A stretch of DNA of 64,000 nt. Origin: Planctomycetota bacterium. GTDB lineage: Bacteria; Planctomycetota; Phycisphaerae; UBA1845. The notes beneath the pieces were generated by a model that saw only the letters and a list, made by a program, of their open reading frames with translations, ran no database searches and was not told the DNA's origin. Position 1 is the first letter of the stretch, and each line of letters starts with the position of its first letter. The position numbers and the translations under genes are program-made. This document shows, piece after piece, positions 302-63,869 of this stretch. The stretch spans positions 6,756 through 70,755 of the forward strand of contig JAJRYY010000009.1 in assembly GCA_024275565.1 (NCBI GenBank), written 5' to 3'.

Positions 302-2116
302 ATGATAAATCGCTTCCCAAGAGGACGACGGCTTCGCGTGTTGATGCTGCGCATTCTGGCCCGTGGCGGGTTCAAGGAGGAGTACTTCCTCATCACGCTC
401 GCACTGCTCATCGGGGCAGCCACAGGGCTTGGGGCGCACCTCTTTTTCGAACTGATCGAGTATGCAACGCACCTTGCATACGGCGCGAGCGATGGACTGT
501 TCGCCGGGCGACCCTACATGATTGTCGTCATGCCGGTCGTGGCAGCCCTGGCGGTCGGTGCCATGACATACCGCTTCGCCCGTGAGGCCAAGGGGCACGG
601 TGTCCCCGAAGTGATGGACGCGATATATCGCCAGGGTGGCGTTATCCGTGCCCGCGTCGCGATCGTCAAAGCAGTGGCGAGCGCCCTGACCATCGGGTCT
701 GGCGGGTCGGCTGGGACCGAAGGACCGATCGTGCAGATTGGGGCGGCGGTTGGTAGCGGATTTGGACAATTTCTCAATGTCGAGCGCCGCCAGATGGGGA
801 TCCTGGTGGCATGCGGGGTGGCGGGCGGAATCGCAGCCATCTTCAACGCACCGATCGCCGGGGTTCTGTTCGCACTTGAAATATTCCTGAAAGATTTCTC
901 GCTCCGGGCCTTCGCACCGGTCGTATTCGCAAGCGTCATCAGTTGCTCCATCACGCACGCGCTTCGCTTCGGCGGCGGGGATGTCGCCATTTTCCAGGTA
1001 TATCAGGACGCTCAATACAATTTCAGCGGTCTGGAGCTTCCCTATTTCCTCCTCCTCGGCGTTCTCTGTGCGATCGTCGCAGCCGTGTTCATTAAATCAC
1101 TCTACGCTGCCGAGGATCTCGCGGACCGTCTCACAATCCCCGATTACCTGAAACCAGCGATCGGCGCCTTTGGACTTGGTATTCTCGGACTCATCTTTCT
1201 ACTGACAACTGAGCCTGGCAGCCATCAAATGCCTTCGTTTTTTGGGAACGGGTATACACTGATTGAGACAGCCATCTCCCCGAAAGTATTCAACGAGGGC
1301 GTGGGATTACTCCTGCTGCTGCTCGTACTCAAGATATTGGCCACCTGCCTCACGCTCGGCAGCGGCGGATCGGGTGGTATTTTCGCACCTTCGCTGTTCA
1401 TGGGTGCGGTAACTGGCGGAGCGTTCGGACTCATCCTCTACCAGGTCGGACTGATCCCGCAAGACAGCATCACAGCCTACGCACTGGTAGGGATGGCTGC
1501 CGTGCTGGCTGGCACCACGCACGCTCCACTCACCGCCATTGTGATGCTCTACGAAATAACACGCGAACCCAAGGTCATCCTTCCGATCATGTTCGCAGCC
1601 ATCGTGGCTACTACCGTCGCCCAGAATCTCTGCCGCGACAGCATCTACACGTTGAAATTGCGACGCCGAGGTGTTCGCGTCGGGACGCTGGCAGACCTGA
1701 CGATTCTCAAGGGCATCTCAGCCCACCAGGTCGCCACCTCCCCCGCAGTCCTTGTCCACCCCGAAGACCCCCTGCAGAAGCTCATCGACCTTGCGACCGA
1801 AAATGAAACGGGGGATTTTGTCGTGGTCGACCCGGACGGTGCGTTCCAAGGCCTGGTCATCGCAGAGGACATCCGCACCGCCCTGTTGCAACCGGAGGCG
1901 GTCCCGTTGCTGCTGGTGGGCGAGCTGCTCCGTCAGGGGATCCCGATTATCGACCCCGATGAAACTCTCGACAATGTGATGGACGCGTTTGCGAAATCCA
2001 ATGTCCAGTCGCTCCCGGTCGGTATGGACAACAACTCCGACCACGTGAAATGCCTCATCACGCGTCAGGCAGTCATGACCCGATACCACCAGGAATTTGA
2101 AGTGCATTCCGACTGA
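302..2116 (+). CDS. ClC-family voltage-gated chloride channel / Cl-/H+ antiporter with C-terminal CBS domain pair
   Basis: 604-aa ORF with multiple TM helices. Contains ClC selectivity-filter-like motifs GSGGSAGTEGP and GSGGSGGIFAP. The C-terminal ~150 aa look like tandem CBS domains. The stop codon is TGA. Confidence 0.85.
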   Translation: MINRFPRGRRLRVLMLRILARGGFKEEYFLITLALLIGAATGLGAHLFFELIEYATHLAYGASDGLFAGRPYMIVVMPVVAALAVGAMTYRFAREAKGHGVPEVMDAIYRQGGVIRARVAIVKAVASALTIGSGGSAGTEGPIVQIGAAVGSGFGQFLNVERRQMGILVACGVAGGIAAIFNAPIAGVLFALEIFLKDFSLRAFAPVVFASVISCSITHALRFGGGDVAIFQVYQDAQYNFSGLELPYFLLLGVLCAIVAAVFIKSLYAAEDLADRLTIPDYLKPAIGAFGLGILGLIFLLTTEPGSHQMPSFFGNGYTLIETAISPKVFNEGVGLLLLLLVLKILATCLTLGSGGSGGIFAPSLFMGAVTGGAFGLILYQVGLIPQDSITAYALVGMAAVLAGTTHAPLTAIVMLYEITREPKVILPIMFAAIVATTVAQNLCRDSIYTLKLRRRGVRVGTLADLTILKGISAHQVATSPAVLVHPEDPLQKLIDLATENETGDFVVVDPDGAFQGLVIAEDIRTALLQPEAVPLLLVGELLRQGIPIIDPDETLDNVMDAFAKSNVQSLPVGMDNNSDHVKCLITRQAVMTRYHQEFEVHSD

Positions 2117-2245
2117 GAAGTAAAATCCGACTGAGAAGTAAAATCCGACTGAGAAGTACAATCCGACTGTGAAGTGCATTCCGACCGAGAAGCACATTCC
2201 GACTGAAAGTACAATCCGACAGAAAAGTGCAATCTGACCGACTGG
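2093..2245. repeat. 18-bp tandem repeat array (~8 units, consensus CCGACTGAGAAGTAAAAT, progressively degenerate)
   Basis: Direct reading: ccgactgagaagtaaaat x2, then ccgactgagaagtacaat, ccgactgtgaagtgcatt, ccgaccgagaagcacatt and further units. The array begins inside the last codons and stop of the ClC gene. It fills the convergent gap to frr. Confidence 0.8.
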
Positions 2246-17801: not shown

Positions 17802-18902
17802 TCAGCGGGGTCCTGTGTAGGCAGCACCGAATGACGCGAAATCTGAAAGGGTCGTCGCACCATCCCCGTCCGCATCGAACGGACGACAGTCTACCGATAC
17901 ATCGCCCCCCATGCACAACTGAAATATCGCAAAATCGCCGAAATCAATATCCCCGTCGTCATTCGCATCGCCATAAAGCGAAACGTCAGCCTGTTCCGCA
18001 ACATAGCCAGCCACCGACCGCAGCAGATCCTTCAGCATGTCGAAGTCAATGTAATCCGGGGAGACATCGATCGCGTCGTTTTGCGTATGGTAAAACCCGT
18101 TGCACAGATAACATCGCTCGATGACAACAAAAGCCGGTATCCCGACCGACTCGAACGACCAGTGATCCGAAAATGAAAAATTACCGAAATTCAAAAACGC
18201 CGACAGACCGTTTCCATAAGTGTCGATCGCCGTTGCGATACCATTTGCAGCAGCAGCGGACGCATTCTTGCTGTAAATATCCATCCCATAAGCACCGCTG
18301 TTATGCCCCACCATGTCAGTCGTCACAGCCAGCACGATATTCGCATCGGCGTGATCCGCAACAAACGCAACACTGCCCCGCTTGCCCTGCTCCTCACGAT
18401 CGAAGCAGACGAATTTGATCGTGCGCGCACTCCGCATCCCGGAAAACAACCGGGCCGTCTCCATAACCACAGCCGACCCCGATCCATTATCATCTGCTCC
18501 AGGATTGTTGGCCGAATCAAAATGTGCACCCACGACAATGATCTCGTCGGGATGCTCGTAGCCCGTCAGCGTCGCAACAACGTTGTGGTAGGTCGTCCCG
18601 TTATATTGGAAGGGGTCAAGCTCCGCATCGAAACCATACAGCATGAAATCCGCCAGAATATTGTCGCGGGCGAGGTCGTGCTCAGGACCAAATCCACGGT
18701 TGTCACCAAGGCGCGTATACAGCAGATCCTCCATGCAGTGTCGGTAATGACCAATATCGACCCGATCGGCAATCACTCCGGGAGGAGCTCCGGCATTGGC
18801 AGAAGTTGTGATGACCGAAAGAACGCAATGGGATGACACGATAAGAACTGAAAGACCCTGTCGATTACGGCCCTGTCGATTAATGCTCTGTCGAAAATTC
18901 AT
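17802..18902 (-). CDS. M28-family zinc aminopeptidase with C-terminal double Ca-loop module
   Basis: The M28 metal-binding block AHFDSANNPGADDNGSGSAVVMETARLFSG is present. A signal peptide starts at the internal Met (MNFRQ...). The C-terminus reads DANDDGDIDFGDFAIFQLCMGG...CRPFDADGDGATTLSDFASFGAAYTG. Confidence 0.75.
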   Translation of the reverse strand: MNFRQSINRQGRNRQGLSVLIVSSHCVLSVITTSANAGAPPGVIADRVDIGHYRHCMEDLLYTRLGDNRGFGPEHDLARDNILADFMLYGFDAELDPFQYNGTTYHNVVATLTGYEHPDEIIVVGAHFDSANNPGADDNGSGSAVVMETARLFSGMRSARTIKFVCFDREEQGKRGSVAFVADHADANIVLAVTTDMVGHNSGAYGMDIYSKNASAAAANGIATAIDTYGNGLSAFLNFGNFSFSDHWSFESVGIPAFVVIERCYLCNGFYHTQNDAIDVSPDYIDFDMLKDLLRSVAGYVAEQADVSLYGDANDDGDIDFGDFAIFQLCMGGDVSVDCRPFDADGDGATTLSDFASFGAAYTGPR

Positions 18903-19198
18903 GATATTGCTCGCACAGATGTACCTCGACCCGGCAGTTTTAGACTGCACTTTCAGGCTGCACCGGATCATTGATCCACACGTCCATGATACCACGCCTC
19001 CAACACCTCCTTCAAGCACAATCGGCCCGAAAATACGCCTTCCCCTGACTTAATCCAGATCGCGCCGATCCATCGGAATTTCGGTCGTTCCGCCCTGATG
19101 CTGATTGGGTCCGATCTTGTCCCATCGCGCTCTGAGACTGAAGCGGATTGACATTCGTAACCGGATGACCCATCCTTGATCCATGTAGCCAAGCCGCA

Positions 19199-19360
19199 GG
19201 GTGCCACTGGCGGCTTGCCCGCCAGTGCTTACGCAGGGTGCCGGGCCGTGTGGCCCACCTCTTCAGAGGTGGGGGAGCCGAAGATCAACCGAACATCCCC
19301 CAAGACCGCGTAAATCAATAGCAAAGCGCCGCGTGCCACTGGCGGCTTGTTCACCAGTGC
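19199..19360. repeat. cluster of REP-like palindromic elements (two copies of GGTGCCACTGGCGG-CTTGY-CCGCCAGTGC plus a second hairpin motif)
   Basis: Copy 1 at 19199-19229 is an inverted repeat CACTGGCGG/CCGCCAGTG. A second hairpin CACCTCTTCAGAGGTG-GGGGAGCCGAAGA lies at 19251-19295. A degenerate copy of the first element is at 19333-19360. Related copies occur at 27424-27462, 40485-40675 and 63840-63869. Confidence 0.6.
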
Positions 19361-19386: not shown

Positions 19387-20229
19387 TCACCCCCCAAACA
19401 CCCCCTGAAACCCCGCAAAATCAACAAGATCAACATCGCCATCACCATCCATATCCGCCCACCGACACCCCGGCCCAGCGTCGATACTGATCCCGCTGTT
19501 CCTGCTGCACTCTTCAAAGTACCGCCAGTCCCGAAGCCCAACCCCATCCGCACTATCGAAATCCCCACTGCCGTCCACAGCAATATCCCCATAACGAATG
19601 CAATCCCACCGGTTGAAGGCAGGCATTTGCCAAGACTTACCACGCCAAGTAATTCGGGGACCGTTGGATGGAAATGCGCCTTCAGCTATACCATTCGTAA
19701 CCAACTCTCCATCAATGTACCACCAGAAAAGATTGATCGGCCCGTTAACCAGTTCAAGACGATGAACATGCGGGACACCGGCCTCAAAATCAGCGAACAC
19801 AATTGGAAGCAGGTTGTCACGATTCAACTTTGCTCGATCGCGGGCGACAAAAAAAGTGTACCTGATCCCAAACGAGTTTCCGACAGCCATTGCGGTCGGA
19901 GCACCAGCTACAATTTCGGATGCATCTCCGTTCGCTTCGACCTTCCACTCCAGGAAAAAGGAAGGCCCCCCAACGAAATCGTCAAGTGTACGGCGATAAG
20001 AATCGTGTCCCCCTTGTTCTTTGCCAGGGCATTCAACCATATCAAGCTGCTGGATGTACTGTCCATCCTCAACCCAGAGAATGGGTACGCAAAATTGTTG
20101 CAACAACCCCCAACCCCCCGCAACAGGAAAGGAATCACATTCCCAGGTGAACACCTCCCCGCGCGCAATCGCCGCCGAAATCAGCACACATCCTGCCATC
20201 ACTGCCTTGCTTACCATTGCTCTCAACAT
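19387..20229 (-). CDS. secreted hypothetical protein with C-terminal Ca-loop module
   Basis: 280 aa with a signal peptide. It ends ...CRWADMDGDGDVDLVDFAGFQGVFGG. Confidence 0.5.
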   Translation of the reverse strand: MLRAMVSKAVMAGCVLISAAIARGEVFTWECDSFPVAGGWGLLQQFCVPILWVEDGQYIQQLDMVECPGKEQGGHDSYRRTLDDFVGGPSFFLEWKVEANGDASEIVAGAPTAMAVGNSFGIRYTFFVARDRAKLNRDNLLPIVFADFEAGVPHVHRLELVNGPINLFWWYIDGELVTNGIAEGAFPSNGPRITWRGKSWQMPAFNRWDCIRYGDIAVDGSGDFDSADGVGLRDWRYFEECSRNSGISIDAGPGCRWADMDGDGDVDLVDFAGFQGVFGG

Positions 20230-20779: not shown

Positions 20780-20870
20780 AAGTCATTATGATCGGTGACT
20801 ATGTTCGTATAAGTCATGTTCGCGCAAGTCATGTTCGCATAAGTCATATTCGTACAAGTCATGTTCGAAA
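20780..20870. repeat. 15-bp tandem direct repeats (AAGTCATGTTCGNNN x4 near-perfect, plus 2 degenerate copies) in the leader of the FG-GAP gene
   Basis: Read directly: aagtcatgttcgcgc / aagtcatgttcgcat / aagtcatattcgtac / aagtcatgttcgaaa. Confidence 0.7.
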
Positions 20871-20924
20871 AGTCAGGCACGGAGAAACCATGTCCGGGGA
20901 AGTCAATCCCCGGCAGACGGGCTT

Positions 20925-27423: not shown

Positions 27424-27462
27424 GAGGGTGCCACTGACGAACTGTCCGCCGGTGGCACCCTT
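27424..27462. repeat. REP-family hairpin (GGGTGCCAC...GTGGCACCC), possible terminator for convergent genes
   Basis: A perfect 9-bp stem. It shares the GGGTGCCACTG core with the other REP copies. Confidence 0.4.
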
Positions 27463-27612: not shown

Positions 27613-29076
27613 TCAGGCAATCAATGAATACACTGTAATCGAGACAGCAGCGATCATAGCCGCCGCCGCAAGCCACGCGAGAATCCGACGAAAATCGTAT
27701 TCTACCCAGGTGAAAACCTGATCCAGTTTATCAAGTCCCGTAACGAGCGCCTCAGCCACCAGGAGCAATCCATTGCGGGCAGGCGACCAGATGCGATCGT
27801 AAAATGGAATACAGACACGTTCGCGAATCGGCAGCCAGGCATGCCTGAGGGCGATCGCACGCATTCTCGCCACATGGGTGCCAAACGAGATGGATGGATT
27901 GGATGACTTGGATGGATTGGATGACGAATCGCCTTTTGGCTTCCCGGGTGCTGTTTCAGTCTCTTTTGAAACGTCCGACGCCTCGGGGGGAGCGGGCGAA
28001 TCATCCGTAAAGTCCGGGATCGGATCAGTCTCTGAGACGAACCGTGCAGCCTCCAGATCTGTTAAATCAGGCTGCGGTGAATTCAAGGACTCCTTCGAGA
28101 TATCGCCCGTCTCTTCGACAAGATCGGACGGTCTCACTGCATTGTCAGGAACCACGGCCTCTGATTCAGCGACATCCGATTCAGCGACATCGAAGTCAGC
28201 AGACTCGGATTCAGCGACGTGAGATTCAGCAGCCTCGGATTCCGCAGCCTCGGATTCAGCAGCGTGGGCTTCAACGACATCATTGTCATTGAACGAACCC
28301 GGACGCGCCCCGCCATCAGAGATCACGTCATCGGTCGAGGCAGCGTTCTCTTCTGCGACCAGTGAACTTGCGGCGTCGATTTCCTCCGCAATCCCATAGT
28401 CAGTCTCATCTGTCATCTCAGCGATGAGGTCTTCGACGTGTACCAGTTCGGCTTCCAGTTGCTCGTGCGAGACGCGTTCAGGATGCTCGGAAGAGGGGAG
28501 ATCGGCGCTTCCAGATGCAGGCAGTTCGGAATATTCCCCGGTCGATCCGGGTGACAGGGGATCTGCCCCGTCGGATGCACCCGACGCCTCATCGTCGATC
28601 CCGGTTGCAGCCGGCTTGAGGATACCGACTTCCCGACCGAGTTCGTGGGACAGGTCGGTGGCTTCGTCCAGCACACGGTCAACCTCTGTTCCCACCAGCC
28701 CAGACGGGTCCAACCCGGTCGGATCAAACCCGGTCGGATCAAGCACAGACGGGTCAAGCCCAGTCGGATCAAGCCCGGTCGGATCAAACCCAGCCGAGTC
28801 CAGCCCAGCCGAGTCCAGCCCAGCCGAGTCCAGCCCGGTCGGGTCCAGTCCAGACGGGTCAAGCCCTGGCGGATTAGGGCTGACAGGATCAGGCGTCGGA
28901 AAATCAGGTGCAGACGAATCAGGCTCAGCCGGTTCATGCCCAGGCGTATTGGATCCAGCCGCTCCGGGTTCAGGCGGATCGGGTTCGGGTGGGCTGGGTT
29001 CGGTTTGTTCAGGGGGGTCGGGCATAGAAATCAGGTCTCGCGGTATCCGGAGTATCATCGGAGGATACTGCCGCAA
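27613..29076 (-). CDS. tail-anchored acidic repeat protein (hypothetical)
   Basis: 487 aa. About 13 tandem (P/S/T/A)GLD peptide repeats and AESE repeats are encoded by DNA-level tandem repeats (28680-28870). There is a single C-terminal TM helix and a conserved ~90-aa C-terminal region. Confidence 0.5.
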   Translation of the reverse strand: MRQYPPMILRIPRDLISMPDPPEQTEPSPPEPDPPEPGAAGSNTPGHEPAEPDSSAPDFPTPDPVSPNPPGLDPSGLDPTGLDSAGLDSAGLDSAGFDPTGLDPTGLDPSVLDPTGFDPTGLDPSGLVGTEVDRVLDEATDLSHELGREVGILKPAATGIDDEASGASDGADPLSPGSTGEYSELPASGSADLPSSEHPERVSHEQLEAELVHVEDLIAEMTDETDYGIAEEIDAASSLVAEENAASTDDVISDGGARPGSFNDNDVVEAHAAESEAAESEAAESHVAESESADFDVAESDVAESEAVVPDNAVRPSDLVEETGDISKESLNSPQPDLTDLEAARFVSETDPIPDFTDDSPAPPEASDVSKETETAPGKPKGDSSSNPSKSSNPSISFGTHVARMRAIALRHAWLPIRERVCIPFYDRIWSPARNGLLLVAEALVTGLDKLDQVFTWVEYDFRRILAWLAAAAMIAAVSITVYSLIA

Positions 29077-29990: not shown

Positions 29991-30902
29991 ATGATGGCAT
30001 TTTTGCGGTTGATGCGTCCGGCGCAGTGGATCAAGAATCTGGCGGTGCTGGCTGGTCCTGCGTTTGCGATGCAGTTTGGCGAGGACGCGGTCTGGAACAC
30101 GCTGTTGATTTTTGTAGCGTTTTGTCTGATCTCGAGTGCAAGCTACGCGATCAATGATGTGATGGATCGTGAGGCTGACGCGTTGCATCCCAAGAAGAAG
30201 ACGCGTCCGATTGCGTGTGGGGATGTGTCGCCGGGGGCTGCGATCGTTCAGGCGATCCTGCTGGTGGTGGCTGGCGTGGGGTTGAGTGCGAAGATGCTGC
30301 CACTCGGATGTACGGTCATTCTGGTGGCGTATTTTGTGGTGATATTGTCTTACTCGCTGGCGTTGAAACGCCGGATGATTCTGGATGTGATTTTGATCGC
30401 GGTGGGGTTTGTGCTTCGGGCGACAGCCGGTGCGGAGGCGGTCGAGGTTGTGGTGTCGCCGTGGCTGATCGTTTGTACTTTTACGATTTGCTTGTTCATG
30501 GGGTTCGGTAAGCGGCGATGCGAGATTGCTCAGTTTGGGTCGCTGGAGGAAGCCAGCGAGCATCGGCTGACGTTGCTTCGGTATACGCCGGAGTTTTTGA
30601 ATCATCTGATCAGCGTGTCAGCCGGGATCGCGATCATGACGTTTTTGCTCTACACGATGGATCGCAACCCGGAGTATGCACCGCCGTTTCGGAAGGACCA
30701 TCTGCTGTACACGATGCCGCTGGTGGTCTATGGGGTGTTTCGGTTTGCCATGCTGGTGCAGAGCGGGAATCGCCAGGGGCCTATGGATATCATCGTGCGG
30801 GATAAGCCGTTTATCGGGACGATCGTGATCTGGGGCCTGCTGGCGGTTGCGATTATGACGGAGAAGTACTGGCTGGCAGCGGTCGGGTTCGGGGCTGGGT
30901 GA
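29991..30902 (+). CDS. UbiA-family prenyltransferase (decaprenyl-phosphate phosphoribosyltransferase-like)
   Basis: The NDVMDREAD aspartate-rich motif is present and the protein is multi-TM. The segment 30575-30690 is duplicated in degenerate form at 32767-32885. Confidence 0.7.
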   Translation: MMAFLRLMRPAQWIKNLAVLAGPAFAMQFGEDAVWNTLLIFVAFCLISSASYAINDVMDREADALHPKKKTRPIACGDVSPGAAIVQAILLVVAGVGLSAKMLPLGCTVILVAYFVVILSYSLALKRRMILDVILIAVGFVLRATAGAEAVEVVVSPWLIVCTFTICLFMGFGKRRCEIAQFGSLEEASEHRLTLLRYTPEFLNHLISVSAGIAIMTFLLYTMDRNPEYAPPFRKDHLLYTMPLVVYGVFRFAMLVQSGNRQGPMDIIVRDKPFIGTIVIWGLLAVAIMTEKYWLAAVGFGAG

Positions 30903-32766: not shown

Positions 32767-32885
32767 AGGTTACGGTATACGCCGGTGTTTTTGAATCATC
32801 TGATCAGCGTGTCAGCCGGGATCGCGCGATCATGACGTTTTTGCTCCACACGATGGATCGCAACCCTGAGTATGCCCCGCGACCT
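32767..32885 (+). repeat. degenerate ~115-bp duplicate of an internal 3' segment of the UbiA-family gene (30575-30690)
   Basis: cggtatacgccggtgtttttgaatcatctgatcagcgtgtcagccgggatcgcg...acgatggatcgcaaccctgagtatgcc matches the original with about 8 differences. Confidence 0.7.
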
Positions 32886-37521: not shown

Positions 37522-38679
37522 TCACGAATCATCGCCGCAGGCGCTACCAACCAGCCCGCGAATCTGCTCAGAAAGATCACCACCTCCAAACACAAACGTC
37601 GAGCGCGTCCCGGAAAGAATCTCACCAAGCTGCTCAAACTCCTTCATCCGCGCAAGCGTAGGATTCTCAGCAAGCAACTTCGCAGTATTCGCCTGACTCC
37701 GTGCAGCAGCCGTCTCCTCACGACGCCGGATAAGGTTCGCCTGAGCAGACTTCTCAGCCTCAATCACCTGGTTCAGAATCGTCTTCATCTCACCAGGCAG
37801 TATGATGTCCTTAAGCCCAACGCTCTTGATGGCAACACCAAATCCCTGAGCGCGAGATGCAAGCGCATTCCGAACCTCACCACTGACCGACTCCTTATCA
37901 GCAAGCAACGTATCCAGCGTCCGCGTACCAACAGCAGCCCGCAAAACAAGCTGTGCTTCACGGTACAACGCCTGACCATGGTCAGTCACAACGGTCACCG
38001 CCTTCACAGAATCAACAACCTGATACGCAACCAGAAGATTCACACGCAACGTAACCTTGTCCTTGGTCATGATCTCTTGGCCCGCAACATCCGCAACCTG
38101 CTCACGGCGATCAACAACGCTCCACCTCACACGTCCAACCGTGTTCCAGAAAACATGCCGGCCCTTACGAAGCGTCTCAACAATCGCACCATCCTTAAAC
38201 AACAACGCATCCTCATAATCGGAAACATCCACACTGATCAACCACTTGGACCCAACATCGAAAGCCATCACAGCATCCAGCTTCGCATGATCAAAACGCG
38301 GAACATCCGTATCGAACACCTCAACCTCAATCTTATAAGGCTCATTCCAGAACGCATGACGACCAGGCCCAACGATGTACGCAAGGCGACCATCCTTCCA
38401 GACCAGAGCACGCTCATGGTCAGCAAGCTCGACAATCTTCAGAGCATCACGCATCGCCGCATCCTGAAGCAACACGTCCAACAGCGGATGCTCGAACCGG
38501 GTCAACAGCGTACTCACAACGCCGATCCGATGACGCGTACGACTCCACAGAGAGCTCCACAGACGGTACTTACCCGGTTCCAGCAGCCGGACGAAATCGC
38601 CATACTCAAACAACAAACCCTTCTCATAAGACTTAATCCGCGTCAATCCAAACATACTCACGACACCTCCTTTCAACAT
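37522..38679 (-). CDS. SPFH/band-7 (stomatin/flotillin-like) domain protein with N-terminal repeated region
   Basis: The C-terminal ~170 aa match the SPFH family (LKDIILPGEMKTILNQVIEAEKSAQANLIRRREETAAARSQ). Confidence 0.8.
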   Translation of the reverse strand: MLKGGVVSMFGLTRIKSYEKGLLFEYGDFVRLLEPGKYRLWSSLWSRTRHRIGVVSTLLTRFEHPLLDVLLQDAAMRDALKIVELADHERALVWKDGRLAYIVGPGRHAFWNEPYKIEVEVFDTDVPRFDHAKLDAVMAFDVGSKWLISVDVSDYEDALLFKDGAIVETLRKGRHVFWNTVGRVRWSVVDRREQVADVAGQEIMTKDKVTLRVNLLVAYQVVDSVKAVTVVTDHGQALYREAQLVLRAAVGTRTLDTLLADKESVSGEVRNALASRAQGFGVAIKSVGLKDIILPGEMKTILNQVIEAEKSAQANLIRRREETAAARSQANTAKLLAENPTLARMKEFEQLGEILSGTRSTFVFGGGDLSEQIRGLVGSACGDDS

Positions 38680-39025: not shown

Positions 39026-39095
39026 AAGAGGGGCGGGATTCGAACCCGCTACCGCACGGTTAAACCGTGTGCTCTTACCAGATGAGCTACCCAGG
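39026..39095 (-). tRNA. tRNA-like gene (possible tRNA pseudogene) with canonical D- and T-arms but non-pairing acceptor stem
   Basis: The reverse complement reads ...TAGCTCATCTGGTAAGAGC-A-CACGGTTTAACCGTGCG-GTA-GCGGGTTCGAATCCCGC-CCCTCTTG. The T-loop is TTCGAAT. The anticodon region contains TTTAA, giving either a UUA or UAA anticodon depending on how the loop is drawn. Confidence 0.45.
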
Positions 39096-39383: not shown

Positions 39384-40400
39384 TTACGCGATAGATATAA
39401 CGATGGCGCGACTGTCCTCACGTTCCGTTTCGATCTCAACGTCAAGAAACTTACCAATCAGATCAACATGCGTTTCAGAATGACGAGACAATCCCGTAGA
39501 CCGAAACGTTCCAGACCCCGCGATCGCCATCGGCAGCAACAACTGATCCGTCAGATACTCTCCAACCGGAGCAGATGACCGAAGATAACGCTGACACTGC
39601 TGAACCGCATGGGAAGCGACAGCCTCAGCAGCTCGACCAACCTCACCGAAACCCGTAAAAACTTCCGTCACGTTCTCATACCCAAGCTCGATCGTCACAA
39701 TATTTCCAGGACCCACAGGGCGATCGATCTCAACAACTTCCGCTTCACCCTCATCCCAACCGAGACGCTTCCGCATGACGCGAACTTCCCGATCAGCGAT
39801 CTTCCGATCAAGACTCGATACAACCGCCCGCCCACATCGCCGCACCAGATCGCCACGCTCCACAATGCTGATCCCACCGAAAGATTCAGCAGGTGTCACA
39901 TCCACAACCATACGTCCCCCACCCGCCGGATAGAACCCATACCTCTCAAGGGTCACCGATACCTTCGGACCCATCCGATTCACAAGCGGAAGGTACGACC
40001 GCTCAAGAAAGTCAAACGGAGGTGCATACGGATTATGCGTCCCGCCCTCAAGCACGATCCGACTCGGCGCTTTCGCAAGTGCAAGCGGAAGCAAAATCGT
40101 CTGCAGCACAAGCGTCGTACTACCCGCCGTCCCAATACTGAACGTATAATCACCACCCACAGCCACACCCGGAACAAACACCAGCTCGGTCGAACCCATC
40201 TCATCGCCCTCGACCTTACACCGCCCAATCTCAGCAGCAGCACGGACAGCCGTAAGGTGTTGTCGCAGCAGTCCGGGCTTCCTCCGCTTCGCACGAATAT
40301 TCTCAATTCGAAACGCCCTACCCGTAACGATCGACAGCGCAAGGGACGATCGCAATATCTGCCCCCCGCCTTCACAAAATGAACCATCAACCGTCAACAT
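39384..40400 (-). CDS. rtcA: RNA 3'-terminal phosphate cyclase
   Basis: MLTVDGSFCEGGGQILRSSLALSIVTGRAFRIENIRAKRRKPGL is the RtcA N-terminal signature. Confidence 0.85.
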   Translation of the reverse strand: MLTVDGSFCEGGGQILRSSLALSIVTGRAFRIENIRAKRRKPGLLRQHLTAVRAAAEIGRCKVEGDEMGSTELVFVPGVAVGGDYTFSIGTAGSTTLVLQTILLPLALAKAPSRIVLEGGTHNPYAPPFDFLERSYLPLVNRMGPKVSVTLERYGFYPAGGGRMVVDVTPAESFGGISIVERGDLVRRCGRAVVSSLDRKIADREVRVMRKRLGWDEGEAEVVEIDRPVGPGNIVTIELGYENVTEVFTGFGEVGRAAEAVASHAVQQCQRYLRSSAPVGEYLTDQLLLPMAIAGSGTFRSTGLSRHSETHVDLIGKFLDVEIETEREDSRAIVISIA

Positions 40401-40484
40401 CACAACAACCTCCTGGAAAGAACAATTCATCGACAGGGCGACCATGTCTTCCTAACAACAGGGCGCCCATATCTTCTTCAACAG

Positions 40485-40675
40485 TGTGGCCCATGTCTTC
40501 AGACATGGGGGAGCCGAAGACCACCCGCACAGCAACCCAAACTCTAGCCAAGCCTCAGGGTCCACTGTACGGACCACCATCACAACATAAAACGGGTCCC
40601 ACCGGCGACTCGTCCGCCAGCGTGCTTCATCACAGCATAAAACGGGTGCCACTGGCGGCTTGTCCGCCAGTGTCT
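40485..40675. repeat. REP-like element cluster in the rtcB-rtcA intergenic spacer
   Basis: Contains a CATGTCTTCAGACATG-GGGGAGCCGAAGA hairpin, a GGTCCACTGTACGGACC palindrome, and two copies of GGGT(G/C)CCAC(T/C)GGCG...CCGCCAG(T/C)G. Confidence 0.6.
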
Positions 40676-40730
40676 ATAACAAACACAACCATCGCATCCC
40701 ACACAGCACCCCAGACACACCACAACCACC

Positions 40731-42242
40731 TCAATCATCCGCCGCAGAAGCATCCTTAATCACAAAACGCGCCTTCAACCGTGCAACCTCAGAAGCCAGC
40801 CCGGCAAGCTTCACAGAACGAAGCACCTCATCAAAATCCTTATAGACAGCCGGGGCTTCATCCATCGGATAATTCCGGCAATTCGTCATAATATCGCACG
40901 TCTCGAACGACGCATTGATCGACTTCTGATCCAGCGACCGGATCGCGGCTTTGCGACCCATCACGCGTCCGGCACCATGATTCACACTGTAACAACTAAT
41001 CTCCGCACCCTTATCCGCCACCATGACAGCCGACCCCCGCTGCGGATCACCCGGCAGCAAAATAGGATGCCCGCTCTTGGCAAACGGCGTATCCTTCAAC
41101 GCATAATGACCACCAGGAAACGCCCGGGTCGCACCCTTACGCATCACCCAGGAAGGTCGGTTATTCACAATCTCCTTCCGCGCAATATTATGACTGATGA
41201 GGTAAACCAGCTCACCAGACACACCCGGAATGACCTCCTGAAAAGCCTCCAGCACAAGCGCGTTAATCAGCAGATGATTCACAGTCGCAAAATTCGCTCC
41301 CATGGACATATCATCGATATAAGCATTCGCCTCAGGCGTCCCAAGCGGTGCATAACACAAATGCCTGTCATTCCCAGGATACTCTATACCCCACCGGTCA
41401 AACTTCCGCTGCAACGCCTGAAACTGTCCCATAGCAAGGTTGTGACCAAATCCACGCGATCCACAGTGCGAGAGAAACGCGACATGCTTATCCCGCAGCC
41501 CGAAGGTCTCAGCACAGTGCTTCGCCCGGCTGTCATCACCAACCTCCACCACCTCACACTCGCCAAAATGATTACCGCCACCATACGACCCAAGCTGCGT
41601 AACCTTCTCCCTGAACTTCGGAAACGCCCCGGAGTGCAGTAGCCAGTCGAGTCGAGCACCCAGCGCATCCCGGGTTTCATCGTGTCCCAGGTGGAAAGAG
41701 TCCTCACAACGCGTCGCCCACCGTGCAGGGACACCCATCGCCTCACAAACCCCCTGCGACGCACCTTCGATCGCAACGCGTCTCCCCAGCGGCTCGCCCA
41801 CATGCCTCGATTTTCGGACGCTGCGCTGGCCCCGCCCCGCTCCCGTAGGCGTCCGCTCACAAATCGCCTCAATCACCGCCCGCCGGGTACGACGATCCAG
41901 AACCTCATTTTCAGGCAAATCAAGCTGCAATAAGCTCATGGAACACTTGATATCCACGCCTACGGGACCGGGGTAGATGTGGGAGGCGGAGGCCATCACG
42001 CAGCCAATGGGGGCGCCATACCCGATATGGGCATCGGGGTTCAGTACCACTTCATCCACGCCGGGGGCGAGGCGGGCATTGACCACCTGCTGCAAAGTGG
42101 CGTCATCAAACGTATCAAGGATAGCCTCGGTCCCAATAACCGTTATTGGCTTCACCTTACCGTCAGCCACCGGCAAAATAGACGTTGCCGCACCCGTACT
42201 CACCAGTCTGTTCGTATGCTTCGCCATCAGAATACTCCTCAC
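40731..42242 (-). CDS. rtcB: RNA-splicing ligase RtcB
   Basis: 503 aa with the RtcB His/Cys metal-site motifs and the VNHGAGR block. Confidence 0.9.
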   Translation of the reverse strand: MRSILMAKHTNRLVSTGAATSILPVADGKVKPITVIGTEAILDTFDDATLQQVVNARLAPGVDEVVLNPDAHIGYGAPIGCVMASASHIYPGPVGVDIKCSMSLLQLDLPENEVLDRRTRRAVIEAICERTPTGAGRGQRSVRKSRHVGEPLGRRVAIEGASQGVCEAMGVPARWATRCEDSFHLGHDETRDALGARLDWLLHSGAFPKFREKVTQLGSYGGGNHFGECEVVEVGDDSRAKHCAETFGLRDKHVAFLSHCGSRGFGHNLAMGQFQALQRKFDRWGIEYPGNDRHLCYAPLGTPEANAYIDDMSMGANFATVNHLLINALVLEAFQEVIPGVSGELVYLISHNIARKEIVNNRPSWVMRKGATRAFPGGHYALKDTPFAKSGHPILLPGDPQRGSAVMVADKGAEISCYSVNHGAGRVMGRKAAIRSLDQKSINASFETCDIMTNCRNYPMDEAPAVYKDFDEVLRSVKLAGLASEVARLKARFVIKDASAADD

Positions 42243-42265
42243 GTTCCATGTGTACTGATAACCAT

Positions 42266-42282
42266 AAGCACCCTGCGTGCCA
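42266..42282 (-). promoter_or_regulatory. sigma-54 (-24/-12) promoter for rtcBA
   Basis: The minus strand reads TGGCACGcaggGTGCT, with a perfect -24 TGGCACG and correct spacing to a GC at -12. It lies 25-40 bp upstream of the rtcB start and next to the divergent rtcR. Confidence 0.5.
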
Positions 42283-42378
42283 GTTAGTCAAGTGTTGATT
42301 TATGGTGAAAAACGCCTGTGTGGTGCTGCGGATTTCCGAAAAGTTGATAAATCTGGATAGTTTTTTATAATCCTCGCT

Positions 42379-43986
42379 ATGTTGAACGTCGCAATCGGAA
42401 TGCTGGGCATGATGCGGGATCGCGGGGATGGACCGGATCGGTGGTCGCAATGGCGCCCTACTGTGTCTTTGTGTCAGCACGAGGATCTGTTGATCAGCCG
42501 TCTCGAACTGCTCGTCGAGACAGGATCGATGGATCTGGCGAATCGGGTGGCAGCCGACGTTCGCTCGGTATCCCCCGAGACCGAAGTTCGCCTCCATATG
42601 ATCGAATTTGGCGATCCATGGGACTTCGAGAATGTCTACAGCGTCCTGCACGGGTTTGCCCTGGATTACCAGTTTGACACCGATCAGGAGCGGTATCTGA
42701 TTCATGTGACCACGGGTACCCATGTCGCTCAAATCTGCACCTACCTGCTGACGGAATCCCGGCATCTTCCCGGGCGGTTGATTCAGACGGCGCCTCCGAA
42801 GCGGCGTAGTTCTGGGCAGGCTGGCCGGTATACGATTATTGATCTGGATTTGTCGAAATACGATCGAATCGCGCAGCGTTTTGAAAGCGAGCAGCGCGAA
42901 GGATCTGAATTCCTGAAGGCTGGGATTCAGACGCGTAATGTTGCTTTTAATCGCATGATTGACGAGATCGAATATGTGGCGATCCACTCGCGGGCGCCGA
43001 TCCTGCTGACGGGTCCGACGGGGGCGGGGAAGTCGAGTCTCGCCCGTCGTATCTTTGATCTGCGGAAGTTGCGGAACAACGTTGCGGGTCGTTTTGTGGA
43101 GGTCAACTGTGCGACCTTGCGTGGTGACGGAGCGATGTCTGCTCTTTTTGGTCATACGCGTGGATCGTTCACGGGGGCTGCTCAGGATCGGGCTGGATTG
43201 CTGAAGGAAGCCCACCTTGGGATTCTGTTTCTTGATGAGGTTGGCGAGCTGGGTCTGGATGAACAGGCGATGCTCTTGCGGGCTGTCGAAGAGCATCGTT
43301 TTCTTCCGCTTGGATCGGACAAGGAGGTCAGCAGTGATTTTCAGCTGATCTGCGGTACGAATCGCGACCTCGGGGCTGATGTCCGGTCGGGTCGATTTCG
43401 CAACGATCTGTTGTCCCGGATCAACCTCTGGGCATTTGAACTGCCGGGGTTGGCGCAGCGGCGTGAGGATATTGAACCGAACGTTCATTTTTCTCTTGAG
43501 CAGGTCACGGTTGCGACGGGCCATCGTTTTCGGTTCAACAAGGAGGCATTGGATATGTTTCTGCGGTTTGCGGAATGTCCGGATACCCCCTGGACCGGGA
43601 ATTTTCGAGACCTCGACGCTGCCATAGCCCGGATGGCGACCTTGGCGCCGTCCGGGAGGATTACGGAGGAGGCGGTGGATCGTGAGATTGATCGCCTCAA
43701 GCGGTCGTGGCGTGATTCTGGAACGTCTGCTTCGGTCGATGGTACGCATGTTCTGGAAGCCCTGCTGGGAGACAGGCTGGACGACCTTGACGAATTCGAC
43801 AGGGTTCAACTCGAGCGTGTGGTGCTGGTCTGTATGGAGTCGCGGTCCTTGTCGGTGGCTGGCCGTCGTTTGTTCGCTGCCTCAAGGCGTAAGCGGAAGG
43901 CGCCGAACGATGCGGATCGCCTTCGGAAGTATTTGTCGCGGTATCGACTGGACTGGTCCATGGTGAAAGACGCTCTTCCCGGGTGA
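42379..43986 (+). CDS. rtcR: sigma-54-dependent transcriptional activator RtcR (CARF-AAA+-HTH)
   Basis: Walker A LLTGPTGAGKSSLARRIF and the GAFTGA-like region are present. There is an N-terminal CARF-like domain and a C-terminal HTH. Confidence 0.85.
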   Translation: MLNVAIGMLGMMRDRGDGPDRWSQWRPTVSLCQHEDLLISRLELLVETGSMDLANRVAADVRSVSPETEVRLHMIEFGDPWDFENVYSVLHGFALDYQFDTDQERYLIHVTTGTHVAQICTYLLTESRHLPGRLIQTAPPKRRSSGQAGRYTIIDLDLSKYDRIAQRFESEQREGSEFLKAGIQTRNVAFNRMIDEIEYVAIHSRAPILLTGPTGAGKSSLARRIFDLRKLRNNVAGRFVEVNCATLRGDGAMSALFGHTRGSFTGAAQDRAGLLKEAHLGILFLDEVGELGLDEQAMLLRAVEEHRFLPLGSDKEVSSDFQLICGTNRDLGADVRSGRFRNDLLSRINLWAFELPGLAQRREDIEPNVHFSLEQVTVATGHRFRFNKEALDMFLRFAECPDTPWTGNFRDLDAAIARMATLAPSGRITEEAVDREIDRLKRSWRDSGTSASVDGTHVLEALLGDRLDDLDEFDRVQLERVVLVCMESRSLSVAGRRLFAASRRKRKAPNDADRLRKYLSRYRLDWSMVKDALPG

Positions 43987-43989
43987 GTT

Positions 43990-44175
43990 GAGAAATGGTC
44001 CGTACAGTGGGCCCTGCGTCGCGGGACAGGAGATGGTCCGCACAGCGGACCCTGCATCACGGTGGTCCATGTGTCGTGGGATTCGTAATGGTCTGTACAG
44101 TGGACCCTGCGTCACGGTGGACCCTGCGTCACTTTGGAACGGCCACAGTCGGGGGCGGCTGTGCTACATATGCCC
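43990..44175. repeat. three tandem ~55-bp repeats each containing the hairpin palindrome GGTCCGTACAGTGGACC
   Basis: atggtccgtacagtgggccctgcgtc..., atggtccgcacagcggaccctgcatc... and atggtctgtacagtggaccctgcgtc... The same palindrome occurs once at 40566-40590. Confidence 0.6.
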
Positions 44176-51350: not shown

Positions 51351-51644
51351 TTCATCAATCGCTGTAAACTGTTTATCGACAATGCTTTAGAAGATTCGTA
51401 CGCATTCGAAGCACTTCCGGGGCATAGGATTATCGGGCCTTGCTTAAAGGTTACTCCGCCACCGAATACCGGTCAATTGTCCCGGGCATCGCTACCACCG
51501 GGAGACCGGATACTGGTCAATCGGAAGACCACCCTCGTCAATCCATGCTGGAGTCTCGTCAATCCGTGCTCGAGTATTGCGAATCCTGCCATGTCGGGCA
51601 GTGAGACGTCCGGGGCTGCACTCAACCGCTCCCCCATCTTCCAT

Positions 51645-63839: not shown

Positions 63840-63869
63840 GGGTGCCACTGGCGGCTTGCCCGCCAGTGC
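63840..63869. repeat. REP-family palindromic element copy
   Basis: ggtgccactggcggcttgcccgccagtgcc is identical to the copy at 19199-19229. Confidence 0.5.

What the first reader, a model, noticed from the sequence alone, without database searches (positions are those of the whole stretch)
19251..19300. Second repeat motif shows compensatory stem changes between copies (structured RNA signature)
At 19251-19295 the sequence is GTGGCCCA-CCTCTTCAGAGGTG-GGGGAGCCGAAGA-TCAACCG. At 40485-40530 it is GTGGCCCA-TGTCTTCAGACATG-GGGGAGCCGAAGA-CCACCCG. The flanks and the TTCAG loop are conserved. The stem changes from CACCTCT/AGAGGTG to CATGTCT/AGACATG while keeping perfect pairing. Covariation that preserves a helix points to selection on structure, as in a small RNA, a protein-binding hairpin or a riboregulator, rather than simple repeat decay.
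Basis: seen in the sequence. Interest (0 to 1): 0.6.

Follow-up and report, generated by a model that had tools for sequence, protein, structure and literature searches.

The report
REP-type extragenic palindromic repeat family
The two look-alike hairpins are copies of a short palindromic repeat family (a REP-like element) scattered between genes in this planctomycete lineage; the matching stem changes are real but typical of such repeats, so the finding is ordinary.

Summary
A 35-nt core, GTGG-CCCAnnTC-TTCA-GAnnTGGG-GGAGCCGAAGA, occurs exactly twice in the window (19250-19284 and 40486-40520, + strand). The only four differences are two compensatory base pairs in an 8-bp stem. It is not a discrete sRNA gene or riboregulator. 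A metagenome scan found 35 more copies on 17 contigs of another Phycisphaerae population. They lie between unrelated housekeeping genes, in both orientations. They occur as singletons, tandem arrays, tags-outward inverted heterodimers, and hybrid dimers with a canonical GTAG-tagged palindrome. Across 34 distinct copies, 98.9% of stem cells pair. There are eight fully paired stem haplotypes, a recurrent G·T pair, and a conserved unpaired GTGG just 5' of the stem. These are the published hallmarks of GTAG-superfamily REP elements and BIME-like mosaics. The GGGGAGCCGAAGA box is the conserved dimer spacer. Window copy 2 carries a decayed partner palindrome. No RAYT transposase gene was found in the ~180 kb available, so mobilisation is inferred, not shown. 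RNA-level effects are plausible but untested; copy 2 sits in the rtcB-rtcA intercistronic region. Verdict: a new member of a known kind, of low interest.

The parts
19250..19285 (+). REP-A copy 1. Unpaired tag GTGG 19250-19253; 5' arm CCCACCTC 19254-19261; loop TTCA 19262-19265; 3' arm GAGGTGGG 19266-19273; conserved spacer GGAGCCGAAGAT 19274-19285.
   Evidence: Covariance model R1 scores it 61.0 bits, E = 4e-13. This stem subfamily (CCTC/GAGG) is shared with 11 metagenome copies.
19286..19310 (+). Right flank of copy 1 (CAACCGAACATCCCCCAAGACCGCG). Possibly a decayed dimer partner, either B-type or an inverted A-type (TCCCCCA...). Ambiguous.
   Evidence: Aligns at about 46% identity to the B module that follows the spacer in metagenome dimers. 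Inference only.
40486..40521 (+). REP-A copy 2. Tag GTGG 40486-40489; 5' arm CCCATGTC 40490-40497; loop TTCA 40498-40501; 3' arm GACATGGG 40502-40509; spacer GGAGCCGAAGAC 40510-40521.
   Evidence: R1 scores it 51.3 bits, E = 1e-10. The TGTC/GACA stem haplotype was seen only here.
40522..40545 (+). Decayed B-type palindrome, the former head-to-head dimer partner of copy 2. CACCCGCACAGCAACCCAAACTC versus consensus GGTCCGCACAGCGGACCCTACGC. Its stem no longer pairs.
   Evidence: Alignment A4 shows a 9-nt exact run, CCGCACAGC, at the same offset after the spacer as in 8-9 metagenome A-B dimers.
40433..40500 (+). 25-nt tandem array, 2.8 copies, consensus ACAGGGCGCCCATGTCTTCTAACA. It is made of the tag plus 5' arm of copy 2 without the 3' arm, and runs into the rtcA start region.
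   Evidence: TRF score 76, 80% matches; sequence read.
19200..19227 (+). T1 palindromic repeat (GGTGCCACTGGCGG-CTTGC-CCGCCAGTG), 22 nt upstream of copy 1.
   Evidence: The family has 6 copies in the window and copies on L045, L051, L053 and L061.
19332..19359 (+). T1 palindromic repeat (degenerate), 58 nt downstream of the copy 1 hairpin (46 nt after the spacer) and 27 nt past the stop of the 280-aa ORF on the minus strand.
40555..40575 (+). B-type palindrome, degenerate (TCAGGGTCCACTGTACGGACC).
40595..40672 (+). Two T1 palindromic repeats (40595-40622 degenerate; 40645-40672 intact), 58 nt past the rtcB stop.
17802..19019 (-). M28-family peptidase gene. Copy 1 lies about 230 nt upstream of its longest-ORF start.
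   Evidence: Pfam PF04389, E = 1.7e-34.
19387..20229 (-). 280-aa ORF with no Pfam hit and a DGDGDVD-type C-terminus. The repeat cluster containing copy 1 begins 27 nt after its stop.
39384..40445 (-). rtcA (RNA 3'-phosphate cyclase). The database protein P0001 starts at 40430.
   Evidence: Pfam PF01137, E = 1e-75; P0001 is 100% identical over 348 aa.
40731..42242 (-). rtcB (RNA ligase). Its stop lies 285 nt upstream of rtcA, and the whole gap is filled by the repeat cluster containing copy 2.
   Evidence: Pfam PF01139, E = 4e-99. The divergent rtcR at 42379-43986 (+) is shown.

Best explanation
The two sequences are members of a family of repetitive extragenic palindromic (REP-type) elements, here called REP-A, of the GTAG-tagged superfamily. 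Each unit has an unpaired GTGG tetranucleotide, an 8-bp G+C-rich stem, a TTYA loop, and an 11-12 nt conserved spacer (GGAGCCGAAGAt). That spacer normally links the unit head-to-head to a second palindrome. REP-A combines with at least two other palindromic families (T1 and B) into BIME-like mosaic clusters just downstream of genes. What is conserved is the ability of the tagged strand to fold into the hairpin, not the stem sequence. Inferred mechanism, by analogy with characterised REPs: the folded single-stranded DNA hairpin plus the 5' GTRG tag is the substrate of a REP-associated tyrosine (HUH/Y1) transposase, which spreads and maintains the family. Secondarily, transcribed copies form stable RNA hairpins that can buffer 3'-5' mRNA decay or modulate read-through. 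This would apply to copy 2 inside the rtcB-rtcA intercistronic region. Shown here: family membership, dispersion, architecture and hairpin conservation. Inferred: the transposase link and any RNA effect.
For: 1) Multi-copy dispersed family. There are 35 further copies on 17 contigs of metagenome Ga0326597. Its GrpE has its named best hits in Phycisphaerae/Planctomycetota. The window itself is a Phycisphaerae-like MAG.
2) Hairpin conservation. 98.9% of cells pair; pairs 12-25, 14-23 and 15-22 carry double changes (17 cells); 0/500 shuffles reach the score; slid controls pair 41-69%. There are 8 fully paired stem haplotypes, against only 3 single-mismatch singletons.
3) Conserved unpaired tag. 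The T is invariant and the two flanking G are at least 90% conserved (GTGG, or GTGC in a minority), immediately 5' of the stem. This fits the degenerate GTRG/GTGG tags reported for GTAG REP families (PMC3733652).
4) G·T at one stem pair in 20/34 copies, a common REP trait.
5) Architecture. There are 8-9 A(+)-12 nt-B(-) tags-outward hybrid dimers, where B = GTAGGGTCCGCTGTGCGGACC is a canonical GTAG REP. There are 5 tags-outward A-A' heterodimers with 29-47 nt spacers, plus tandem arrays (L048, 79-nt period). This matches the published heterodimers, conserved spacers and hybrid dimers.
6) Location. Several copies lie 8-30 nt after stop codons of unrelated housekeeping genes. Both window copies lie between co-directional genes, as described for REPs.
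7) The window holds all three families: A x2, T1 x6, B x4. Copy 2 retains a decayed B partner.
8) Lineage-specific presence. REP-A is absent from about 90 kb of four relatives with 72-74% identical RtcA, including syntenic rtcB-rtcA regions. The B family is present in one of them.
Against: No RAYT/Y1-transposase homolog was found in the window or the fetched loci. This used phmmer with E. coli RayT against all ORFs of at least 60 aa (best E = 0.23), plus Pfam scans of ORFs next to repeat clusters. That is expected for a gene with one or a few copies per genome, but it leaves the mobilisation step untested. Copy number in the window's own genome is unknown: only 2 copies in 64 kb, and the rest of the MAG could not be read. 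A scan of 185,579 species-representative genomes, with the loop fixed as TTCA and the spacer exact, found no true copy, so the family is narrow. The copies were seeded with a pattern that fixed the tag, outer stem and spacer, so the invariance of those parts is partly by construction. The many identical TCGC-type copies are probably one inherited haplotype, not independent events.
Confidence: 0.8

Rival explanations
1. It is a structured RNA in its own right: a small RNA gene, a riboregulator, or a protein-binding RNA hairpin selected at the RNA level.
For: The helix is preserved by compensatory changes. G·T (G·U) pairs are tolerated on the tagged strand only (20 cells, against 1 C·A cell). 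Most copies lie in regions likely to be transcribed, just downstream of genes. Both window copies give weak hits to the hairpin half of Rfam Acido-Lenti-1 (20.6 and 19.8 bits).
Against: No Rfam family reaches its gathering score; the Acido-Lenti-1 threshold is 37 bits and only the generic 8-bp hairpin aligns. Neighbouring genes are functionally unrelated. The tagged strand is antisense to the adjacent gene about as often as sense: 13 versus 8 for the G·T variants and 6 versus 6 for the others, using crude gene calls. Both window copies are antisense to their flanking genes. No promoter-like or terminator-like site accompanies either window copy. Tandem and inverted multimers and hybrid dimers with other repeat families are repeat-element behaviour, not gene behaviour. 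The 61-nt contexts do not fold unusually well.
Confidence: 0.07
2. The perfect pairing is kept without selection. Palindrome-templated repair (intra-strand template switching or quasipalindrome correction during replication) or gene conversion between repeat copies copies a change in one arm onto the other. On this view, covariation says nothing about function.
For: The two differing pairs in the window copies are adjacent, so one template-switch event could produce all four differences. Template-switch correction of quasipalindromes is an established mutational mechanism (my own knowledge). Many copies are identical, which is consistent with copying rather than independent evolution.
Against: A non-Watson-Crick G·T pair persists at one stem position in 20/34 copies and across three stem haplotypes (TCGC, TTGC, TGGC). 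Templated correction would erase it. In the window, the adjacent B palindrome has lost its pairing while the REP-A stem 12 nt away is perfect in both copies. This argues that something specific maintains REP-A. This rival also does not conflict with REP identity; it concerns only how the stems stay paired.
Confidence: 0.08
3. It is a double-stranded DNA operator: an inverted-repeat binding site for a dimeric transcription factor that controls the downstream genes.
For: It is a palindrome upstream of genes on the minus strand: about 230 nt before the M28 peptidase ORF and about 40-55 nt before rtcA.
Against: A dimeric factor reads each half-site's sequence, so symmetric changes to different bases would not be selected. 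Here the half-site sequence varies freely while complementarity is kept. rtcBA is already served by the divergent sigma-54 activator RtcR. The element occurs after stop codons of many unrelated genes and in multimers.
Confidence: 0.02
4. It is an intrinsic transcription terminator or attenuator hairpin.
For: It is a G+C-rich 8-bp stem-loop placed downstream of genes.
Against: There is no T/U tract after the stem on either strand, and the terminator scan finds 0 sites at both loci. Copy 2 lies inside the rtcB-rtcA operon gap, where full termination would silence rtcA.
Confidence: 0.03

Closest known systems
GTAG-tagged REP superfamily (Di Nocera, De Gregorio & Rocco 2013, PMC3733652), including families with GTRG/GTGG tags such as Opitutus terrae GTAG-20, and the Rhodopirellula baltica REP families
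   Same: It has a 20-40 nt palindromic unit, a 6-9 bp stem and a short loop. An unpaired conserved tetranucleotide sits at one foot of the stem. Subfamilies carry alternative complementary stem residues, and G·T pairs are frequent. There are singletons, HH/TT/HT dimers, hybrid dimers between families, and conserved spacers in tags-outward dimers. Copies lie close to the 3' ends of upstream ORFs. Several families coexist in one genome, and the superfamily occurs in the PVC superphylum.
   Different: The stem, loop and spacer sequences differ from the family peptides listed for R. baltica GTAG-20/21, and none of the three window motifs was found in that paper's supplementary text; its Figure 1 consensus sequences could not be read. 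The host class, Phycisphaerae, is not mentioned there. The tag is GTGG rather than GTAG. No associated RAYT has been identified.
E. coli REP/BIME (bacterial interspersed mosaic elements) and the RayT (TnpA-REP) system
   Same: Both are mosaics of different palindromic unit types in alternating orientation, separated by short conserved linkers. Both lie in extragenic or intercistronic positions; copy 2 lies between rtcB and rtcA, as REPs lie between malE and malF (my own knowledge). In both, hairpin plus 5' tag is the recognisable unit. TnpA-REP processes folded single-stranded REP and needs the structure and the preceding motif (PMC8266576 abstract).
   Different: There is no sequence similarity. 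The REP-A stem is a near-perfect palindrome without the bulge of E. coli REP. No RayT homolog was found in the sequence available. Binding of IHF, gyrase or Pol I is untested.
REPINs (REP doublets forming hairpins; Bertels & Rainey 2011, cited in PMC3733652)
   Same: Inverted REP-A pairs with a short spacer (29-30 nt) whose ends are largely complementary (GGGGGAGCCGAA... / ...TTCGAGTCCCCC) could fold into one long hairpin. Singletons such as the window copies look like remnants of dimers.
   Different: All inverted pairs here are heterodimers (a CCTC-type stem with a TSGC-type stem). The commonest dimer partner belongs to a different family (B), which cannot pair with REP-A. Replication as a doublet unit has not been shown.
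Rfam RF01687 Acido-Lenti-1 RNA (candidate sRNA, Weinberg et al. 2010, PMC2864571)
   Same: On the strand opposite the tag, both window copies resemble its first hairpin: 8-bp stem, UGAn loop, CCnAnCnC...GnGnUnGGC.
   Different: Scores are 19.8-20.6 bits against a gathering score of 37. The 3' two-thirds of the model is skipped. The dominant metagenome variant does not hit at all. It is not a member.

Membership tests
REP (repetitive extragenic palindromic) elements, GTAG-tagged superfamily | Short (20-40 nt) unit able to fold into a G+C-rich stem-loop, stem 6-9 bp, short loop | tested here: met
   The unit is a 4-nt tag plus 8-bp stem plus 4-nt loop, 24 nt in all. 98.9% of stem cells pair across 34 distinct copies.
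REP (repetitive extragenic palindromic) elements, GTAG-tagged superfamily | Conserved unpaired tetranucleotide (GTAG, or degenerate GTRG/GTGG) at one end of the stem | tested here: met
   In alignment A2, columns 5-8 read G(>=90%) T(invariant) G(>=90%) G/C, directly 5' of the stem. GTGG tags are documented for O. terrae GTAG-20. Caveat: GTGG was fixed in the seeding pattern. However, copies found afterwards by proximity, with a looser pattern that fixed only the last G of the tag, also carry GTGG or GTGC.
REP (repetitive extragenic palindromic) elements, GTAG-tagged superfamily | High copy number, dispersed through the chromosome | tested here: inconclusive
   The window has 2 copies in 64 kb. 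One metagenome population has 35 copies on 17 separate contigs next to different housekeeping genes. Per-genome copy number cannot be counted, because neither genome is available in full.
REP (repetitive extragenic palindromic) elements, GTAG-tagged superfamily | Extragenic location, mostly close to 3' ends of ORFs between unidirectional or convergent genes | tested here: met
   Both window copies lie between co-directional minus-strand genes. At least 23/35 metagenome copies lie outside GC3-supported open frames even when frames are extended stop-to-stop. The other copies fall in 5' extensions (PanD domain starts at residue 75) or, for those tested, in ORFs with no Pfam support. Several lie 8-30 nt after a stop codon. 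Gene calls are crude.
REP (repetitive extragenic palindromic) elements, GTAG-tagged superfamily | Subfamilies with alternative complementary stem residues; G·T pairs | tested here: met
   There are eight fully paired stem haplotypes, and U·G at pair 13-24 in 20/34 copies.
BIME-like mosaics / REP dimers | Units of the same or different types associated in inverted or tandem arrangements with short, partly conserved spacers | tested here: met
   There are 8-9 A-B tags-outward hybrid dimers with the 12-nt spacer GGAGCCGAAGAT. There are 5 A-A' inverted heterodimers (29-47 nt spacers) and tandem arrays. The window clusters contain A+T1 (locus 1) and A+B+T1 (locus 2), and copy 2 has a decayed B partner.
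REPtron / REPIN-RAYT system | A cognate RAYT (Y1 HUH transposase, PF01797-like) gene in the genome, typically flanked by the REPs | not testable with these tools
   Nothing was found in the about 180 kb held: phmmer with E. coli RayT gave best E = 0.23, and Pfam scans of ORFs beside clusters found nothing. The rest of the two genomes could not be fetched, so absence here is uninformative.
Rfam RF01687 Acido-Lenti-1 | Score at or above the curated gathering threshold (37 bits) with the whole model aligned | tested here: not met
   Scores are 20.6 and 19.8 bits, and only the first hairpin aligns. The metagenome majority variant gives no hit.
Intrinsic terminator | G+C-rich hairpin followed by a U tract | tested here: not met
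   The scan finds 0 terminator-like sites at either locus, and there is no T run after the stem on either strand.
CRISPR array / MITE | CRISPR: regularly spaced repeats with unique spacers. MITE: terminal inverted repeats with target-site duplications, 100-400 nt | tested here: not met
   The spacers in arrays are themselves repeated (L048 has a 79-nt A-B unit three times). The copies are otherwise dispersed singly or as dimers, and the unit is only 24-36 nt.

The most novel reading that the evidence does not exclude
REP-A plus its invariant 11-12 nt spacer (GGAGCCGAAGAt) might be more than a selfish repeat. It is conserved between two Phycisphaerae lineages that differ by 10 points of G+C. 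In the window its stem stays perfect while the neighbouring B palindrome decays. The G·T pair is tolerated on one strand only. It could therefore be a domesticated strand-specific functional module. One possibility is a recognition site for a host nucleic-acid-binding protein or nuclease. Another is an RNA-processing or stability signal, which would be apt for its position inside the rtcB-rtcA RNA-repair operon. It might share ancestry with the unexplained Rfam 'Acido-Lenti-1' motif, which would then itself be a REP-like element.
Probability: 0.1. Interest if true: 0.45.

Novelty: new member of a known kind. Interest (0 to 1): 0.2.

Why it matters
It mainly matters as a caution. Compensatory stem changes between two copies of a short intergenic motif are not, on their own, evidence for a regulatory RNA. 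REP-type repeats generate exactly this signature, and they should be masked or modelled before RNA-motif discovery in Planctomycetota genomes. On the positive side, the work defines three co-occurring palindromic repeat families in Phycisphaerae (REP-A, T1 and B), a class for which REPs do not seem to have been catalogued. It shows they build BIME-like mosaics. It also flags one mosaic inside the rtcB-rtcA operon, where it could set the relative expression of the two RNA-repair genes. If the cognate transposase is found, the GTGG-tagged, near-perfect palindrome would add a PVC example to the 'perfect palindrome' group of REP/TnpA-REP pairs.

Tried and rejected
1) A genome-contig scan left the stem free (TGG-N8-TTCA-N8-GGAGCCGAAGA). 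All 42 hits had 0-5 of 8 positions complementary and came from unrelated phyla, mostly inside coding sequence, so they are chance matches. In hindsight, fixing the loop as TTCA excluded the commoner TTTA variant.
2) Exact-protein look-ups for the window's own contig failed, so the rest of the MAG could not be read.
3) Rfam at gathering thresholds finds only a tRNA in the window. Permissive searches gave only the sub-threshold Acido-Lenti-1 hairpin and an Antizyme_FSE match at E = 0.88. Both were rejected.
4) Longer-range pairing was considered: GUGUGG with CCACCCGCAC in copy 2, and GGGGA with UCCCC in copy 1. Neither is shared between the two copies, so both were rejected.
5) A Shine-Dalgarno or start-codon role for GGGGGAG or for the minus-strand GAAGACATGG units was considered. 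No start codon lies at a suitable distance on the + strand, and the minus-strand ATGs are out of frame with rtcA (reading). Rejected.
6) RAYT hunt: phmmer with E. coli RayT, plus Pfam scans of 20 ORFs near repeat clusters. Nothing was found.
7) Orientation bias of G·T-bearing copies relative to transcription was tested as evidence for an RNA-level constraint. None was seen (8 sense versus 13 antisense).
8) Orthologous rtcB-rtcA gaps in relatives (L043, L064, L066) contain either extra genes or unrelated sequence, and no REP-A.

Full report
**Observation**

GTGGCCCACCTCTTCAGAGGTGGGGGAGCCGAAGA lies at 19250-19284. GTGGCCCATGTCTTCAGACATGGGGGAGCCGAAGA lies at 40486-40520. Both are on the + strand.

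The 35-nt pattern with the four variable positions masked matches twice, against 0.00 expected from shuffles. GGGGAGCCGAAGA has exactly two perfect matches.

The full stem is 8 bp (CCCAnnTC / GAnnTGGG) with a TTCA loop. The only differences in the core are two adjacent pairs, C-G/C-G versus U-A/G-C. A covariance model run without filters finds no third copy in the window.

**Context in the window**

RtcA of the window is 100% identical to a protein from a 70.7-kb NCBI contig. Its named relatives are Phycisphaerae/Planctomycetota MAGs, and the next-closest protein is 78% identical.

Both copies lie between two genes on the minus strand:
- **Copy 1** sits between the stop of a 280-aa ORF (19387-20229) and an M28 peptidase gene (17802-19019).
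- **Copy 2** sits in the 285-nt gap between rtcB (40731-42242) and rtcA (39384-40445). The sigma-54 activator gene rtcR is divergent at 42379-43986.

In both places the motif is embedded in a cluster of other small palindromes:
- **T1**: GGTGCCACTGGCGG-CTTGY-CCGCCAGTG.
- **B**: G[TC]AGGGTCCGCTGTGCGGACC, with four copies in the window.

Neither locus has a terminator-like site or a promoter-like site at the motif.

**More copies elsewhere**

A scan of 185,579 species-representative genomes used a free stem but a fixed TTCA loop and spacer. It returned only chance matches.

A scan of JGI metagenomes with GTGGCCCA-N(8-20)-TGGGGGAGCCGAAGA returned 18 contigs. Seventeen come from one metagenome, Ga0326597. 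The eighteenth, L052, has no hairpin and is a chance match.

A looser pattern and a covariance model then raised the count to 35 copies on those 17 contigs. The contigs have 58-66% G+C, against 55% for the window. The named relatives of a GrpE encoded next to one copy are again Phycisphaerae/Planctomycetota. The family is therefore shared by two clearly different Phycisphaerae lineages.

**Anatomy of the family**

The consensus is nCGG-GTGG-CCCATCGC-TTTA-GCGGTGGG-GGAGCCGAAGAT. Counting pairs on 34 distinct sequences gave these results:
- 98.9% of the 272 stem cells form standard pairs.
- Three pairs carry changes on both sides (17 cells).
- The covariation score is 0.254, against 0.106 ± 0.013 in shuffles (0/500 reach it).
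- Sliding the 3' arm by 1-3 columns drops pairing to 41-69%.

The search patterns left the inner four stem positions free, so their covariation is not an ascertainment artefact. The invariance of the outer CCCA/TGGG and of the tag is partly by construction.

Eight fully paired stem haplotypes exist: TCGC/GCGG, CCTC/GAGG, TGTC/GACA, CCGC/GCGG, TTGC/GCAG, TGGC/GCCG, CCAC/GTGG, and GCCTC/GAGGC with an outer A-T to G-C change. Only three singletons carry a mismatch.

One position is U·G in 20 of 34 copies. That would be a C·A mismatch on the other strand, so the strand carrying the 5' GTGG is the one whose fold is preserved. An unpaired tetranucleotide, GTGG (GTGC in a minority), directly precedes the stem in at least 90% of copies.

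**Architecture and location**

The arrangements seen were:
- **A-B hybrid dimers.** In 8-9 cases the spacer joins REP-A to an oppositely oriented B unit whose tag is a canonical GTAG. Both tags face outward.
- **A-A' inverted pairs.** In five cases two REP-A units face each other, tags outward, across 29-47 nt. Each pair combines a CCTC-type stem with a T[C/T/G]GC-type stem, so they are heterodimers.
- **Tandem arrays.** These also occur, for example three 79-nt A-B units on L048.

Aligned with such dimers, the window's copy 2 continues after the spacer with CCACCCGCACAGCAACCCAAAC. This is a decayed B unit that keeps a 9-nt exact run but no longer pairs. Copy 1's flank is more weakly similar.

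Copies sit next to unrelated housekeeping genes (grpE, rpiB, panD, purE, flagellins). Several lie only 8-30 nt past a stop codon. With crude gene calls, the tagged strand is sense or antisense to the adjacent gene about equally often.

REP-A is absent from about 90 kb of four relatives with 72-74% identical RtcA, including their rtcB-rtcA regions. The B family is present with an exact match in one of them.

**Interpretation**

Every feature listed above is a described property of REP elements of the GTAG-tagged superfamily and of their BIME-like mosaics. The published properties are (PMC3733652):
- 20-40 nt units with 6-9 bp stems.
- An unpaired terminal GTAG, degenerate to GTRG in some families and GTGG in Opitutus terrae.
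- HH/TT/HT dimers, preferential heterodimers, hybrid dimers between families, and conserved spacers.
- Location next to the 3' ends of ORFs between unidirectional or convergent genes.
- Coexistence of several families per genome, including in the planctomycete Rhodopirellula baltica.

E. coli TnpA-REP processes folded single-stranded REP DNA. It requires the structure and the preceding conserved motif (PMC8266576 abstract).

The best explanation, at about 0.8, is that the finding is a REP-type element. The 'covariation' reflects conservation of a hairpin on the tagged strand across subfamilies. The two window copies belong to different subfamilies; the CCTC stem of copy 1 is also common in the other population.

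Mobilisation by a RAYT-type transposase is inferred only. No homolog was found in the about 180 kb available, which is uninformative for a low-copy gene. An RNA-level side effect is plausible, for example a decay barrier or a modulator of read-through between rtcB and rtcA. It is untested.

**Rivals**

- **A bona fide sRNA or riboregulator (about 0.07).** This is disfavoured by the unrelated neighbours, mixed orientation, multimeric arrangements, lack of promoter or terminator signals, unremarkable folding of the context, and absence of any Rfam match at threshold. The only recurrent hit, Acido-Lenti-1, scores 20 bits against 37 and covers only the generic hairpin.
- **Selection-free maintenance of pairing by palindrome-templated correction (about 0.08).** This cannot be excluded for individual changes. 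It does not explain the persistent G·T pair, nor the contrast between the intact REP-A stem and the decayed B stem 12 nt away.
- **A double-stranded operator (0.02) or an intrinsic terminator (0.03).** Both fail on the pattern of variation and on the missing U tract.

**Novelty and score**

REPs are long known, including in the PVC superphylum. This particular family (tag, stem, loop, spacer) was not found in the text or supplements of the main survey, and Phycisphaerae are not mentioned there. It is therefore a new member of a known kind.

Interest is low (0.2). The main value is as a warning for RNA-motif discovery and as a small addition to the REP catalogue.

The most novel reading not excluded (about 0.1) is that REP-A with its invariant spacer is a domesticated, strand-specific functional module, possibly related to the unexplained Acido-Lenti-1 motif.

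Noticed in passing
window 19200-19227, 19332-19359, 27427-27454, 40595-40622, 40645-40672, 63841-63868: A second palindromic repeat family, T1 (GGTGCCACTGGCGG-CTTGY-CCGCCAGTG; 9-10 bp stem with a one-base bulge). All six window copies, and both REP-A copies, have their 'head' on the + strand. The + strand is the C-rich strand throughout the window (negative GC skew). T1 also occurs on metagenome contigs L045, L051, L053 and L061. The 8/8 co-orientation may reflect replication or transcription direction.
   Followed up: partly
window 43997-44017, 44035-44055, 44090-44110 (all on the - strand); also 40555-40575 (+): A cluster of three B-type palindromes (GCAGGGTCCGCTGTGCGGACC and degenerate copies) lies immediately after the rtcR stop. 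In the window the tag is GCAG/TCAG rather than the GTAG seen in the metagenome population and in relative L064.
   Followed up: partly
window 40433-40500: A 25-nt tandem array (2.8 units) is built from the tag plus 5' arm of REP-A copy 2 without the 3' arm. On the minus strand each unit contains GAAGA(C/T)ATGG. The array overlaps the two candidate ATG starts of rtcA (40445 and 40430). How a half-palindrome was amplified is unexplained.
   Followed up: partly
window 39384-43986; loci L043, L064, L066: The rtcR | rtcB - rtcA - Band_7 synteny is conserved in Phycisphaerae relatives, but the rtcB-rtcA gap is variable. It holds a DUF5677 gene in L043, two unannotated ORFs in L064, 190 nt of unrelated sequence in L066, and a 285-nt palindromic-repeat mosaic in the window.
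   Followed up: partly
window 39030-39092 (-): A tRNA gene (Rfam RF00005, 40.6 bits) lies between rtcA and the Band_7/SPFH gene (37522-38679).
   Followed up: no
window 20801-20904: A 15-nt tandem repeat (ATGTTCGCGCAAGTC-like, about 5-6 units) lies just upstream of the FG-GAP-repeat protein gene that starts near 20925. It is non-coding by position, and its function is unknown.
   Followed up: no
window 28144-28293 and 28650-28936: Long 15-nt-period tandem repeats (5-aa periodicity), probably a low-complexity acidic or Ser/Asp-rich repeat region of a large protein.
   Followed up: no
window 30579-30684 versus 32773-32880: Two 54-56-nt segments are 95-98% identical, about 2.2 kb apart. This suggests recently duplicated or converting paralogous genes.
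   Followed up: no
window 2093-2241; 51632-51730; 52528-52606: Further short-period tandem repeats (18-nt, 9-nt and 24-nt units). They were not examined.
   Followed up: no
L064 9895-10000: Relative GCA_029260015.1 carries yet another GTAG-tagged long palindrome (CGTAGGTCAGGGCATCGACCCGACAGG...GTCGGGTCGATGACCCGACCTACAG) directly upstream of rtcA. This indicates that REP-type elements are generally abundant in this clade.
   Followed up: no
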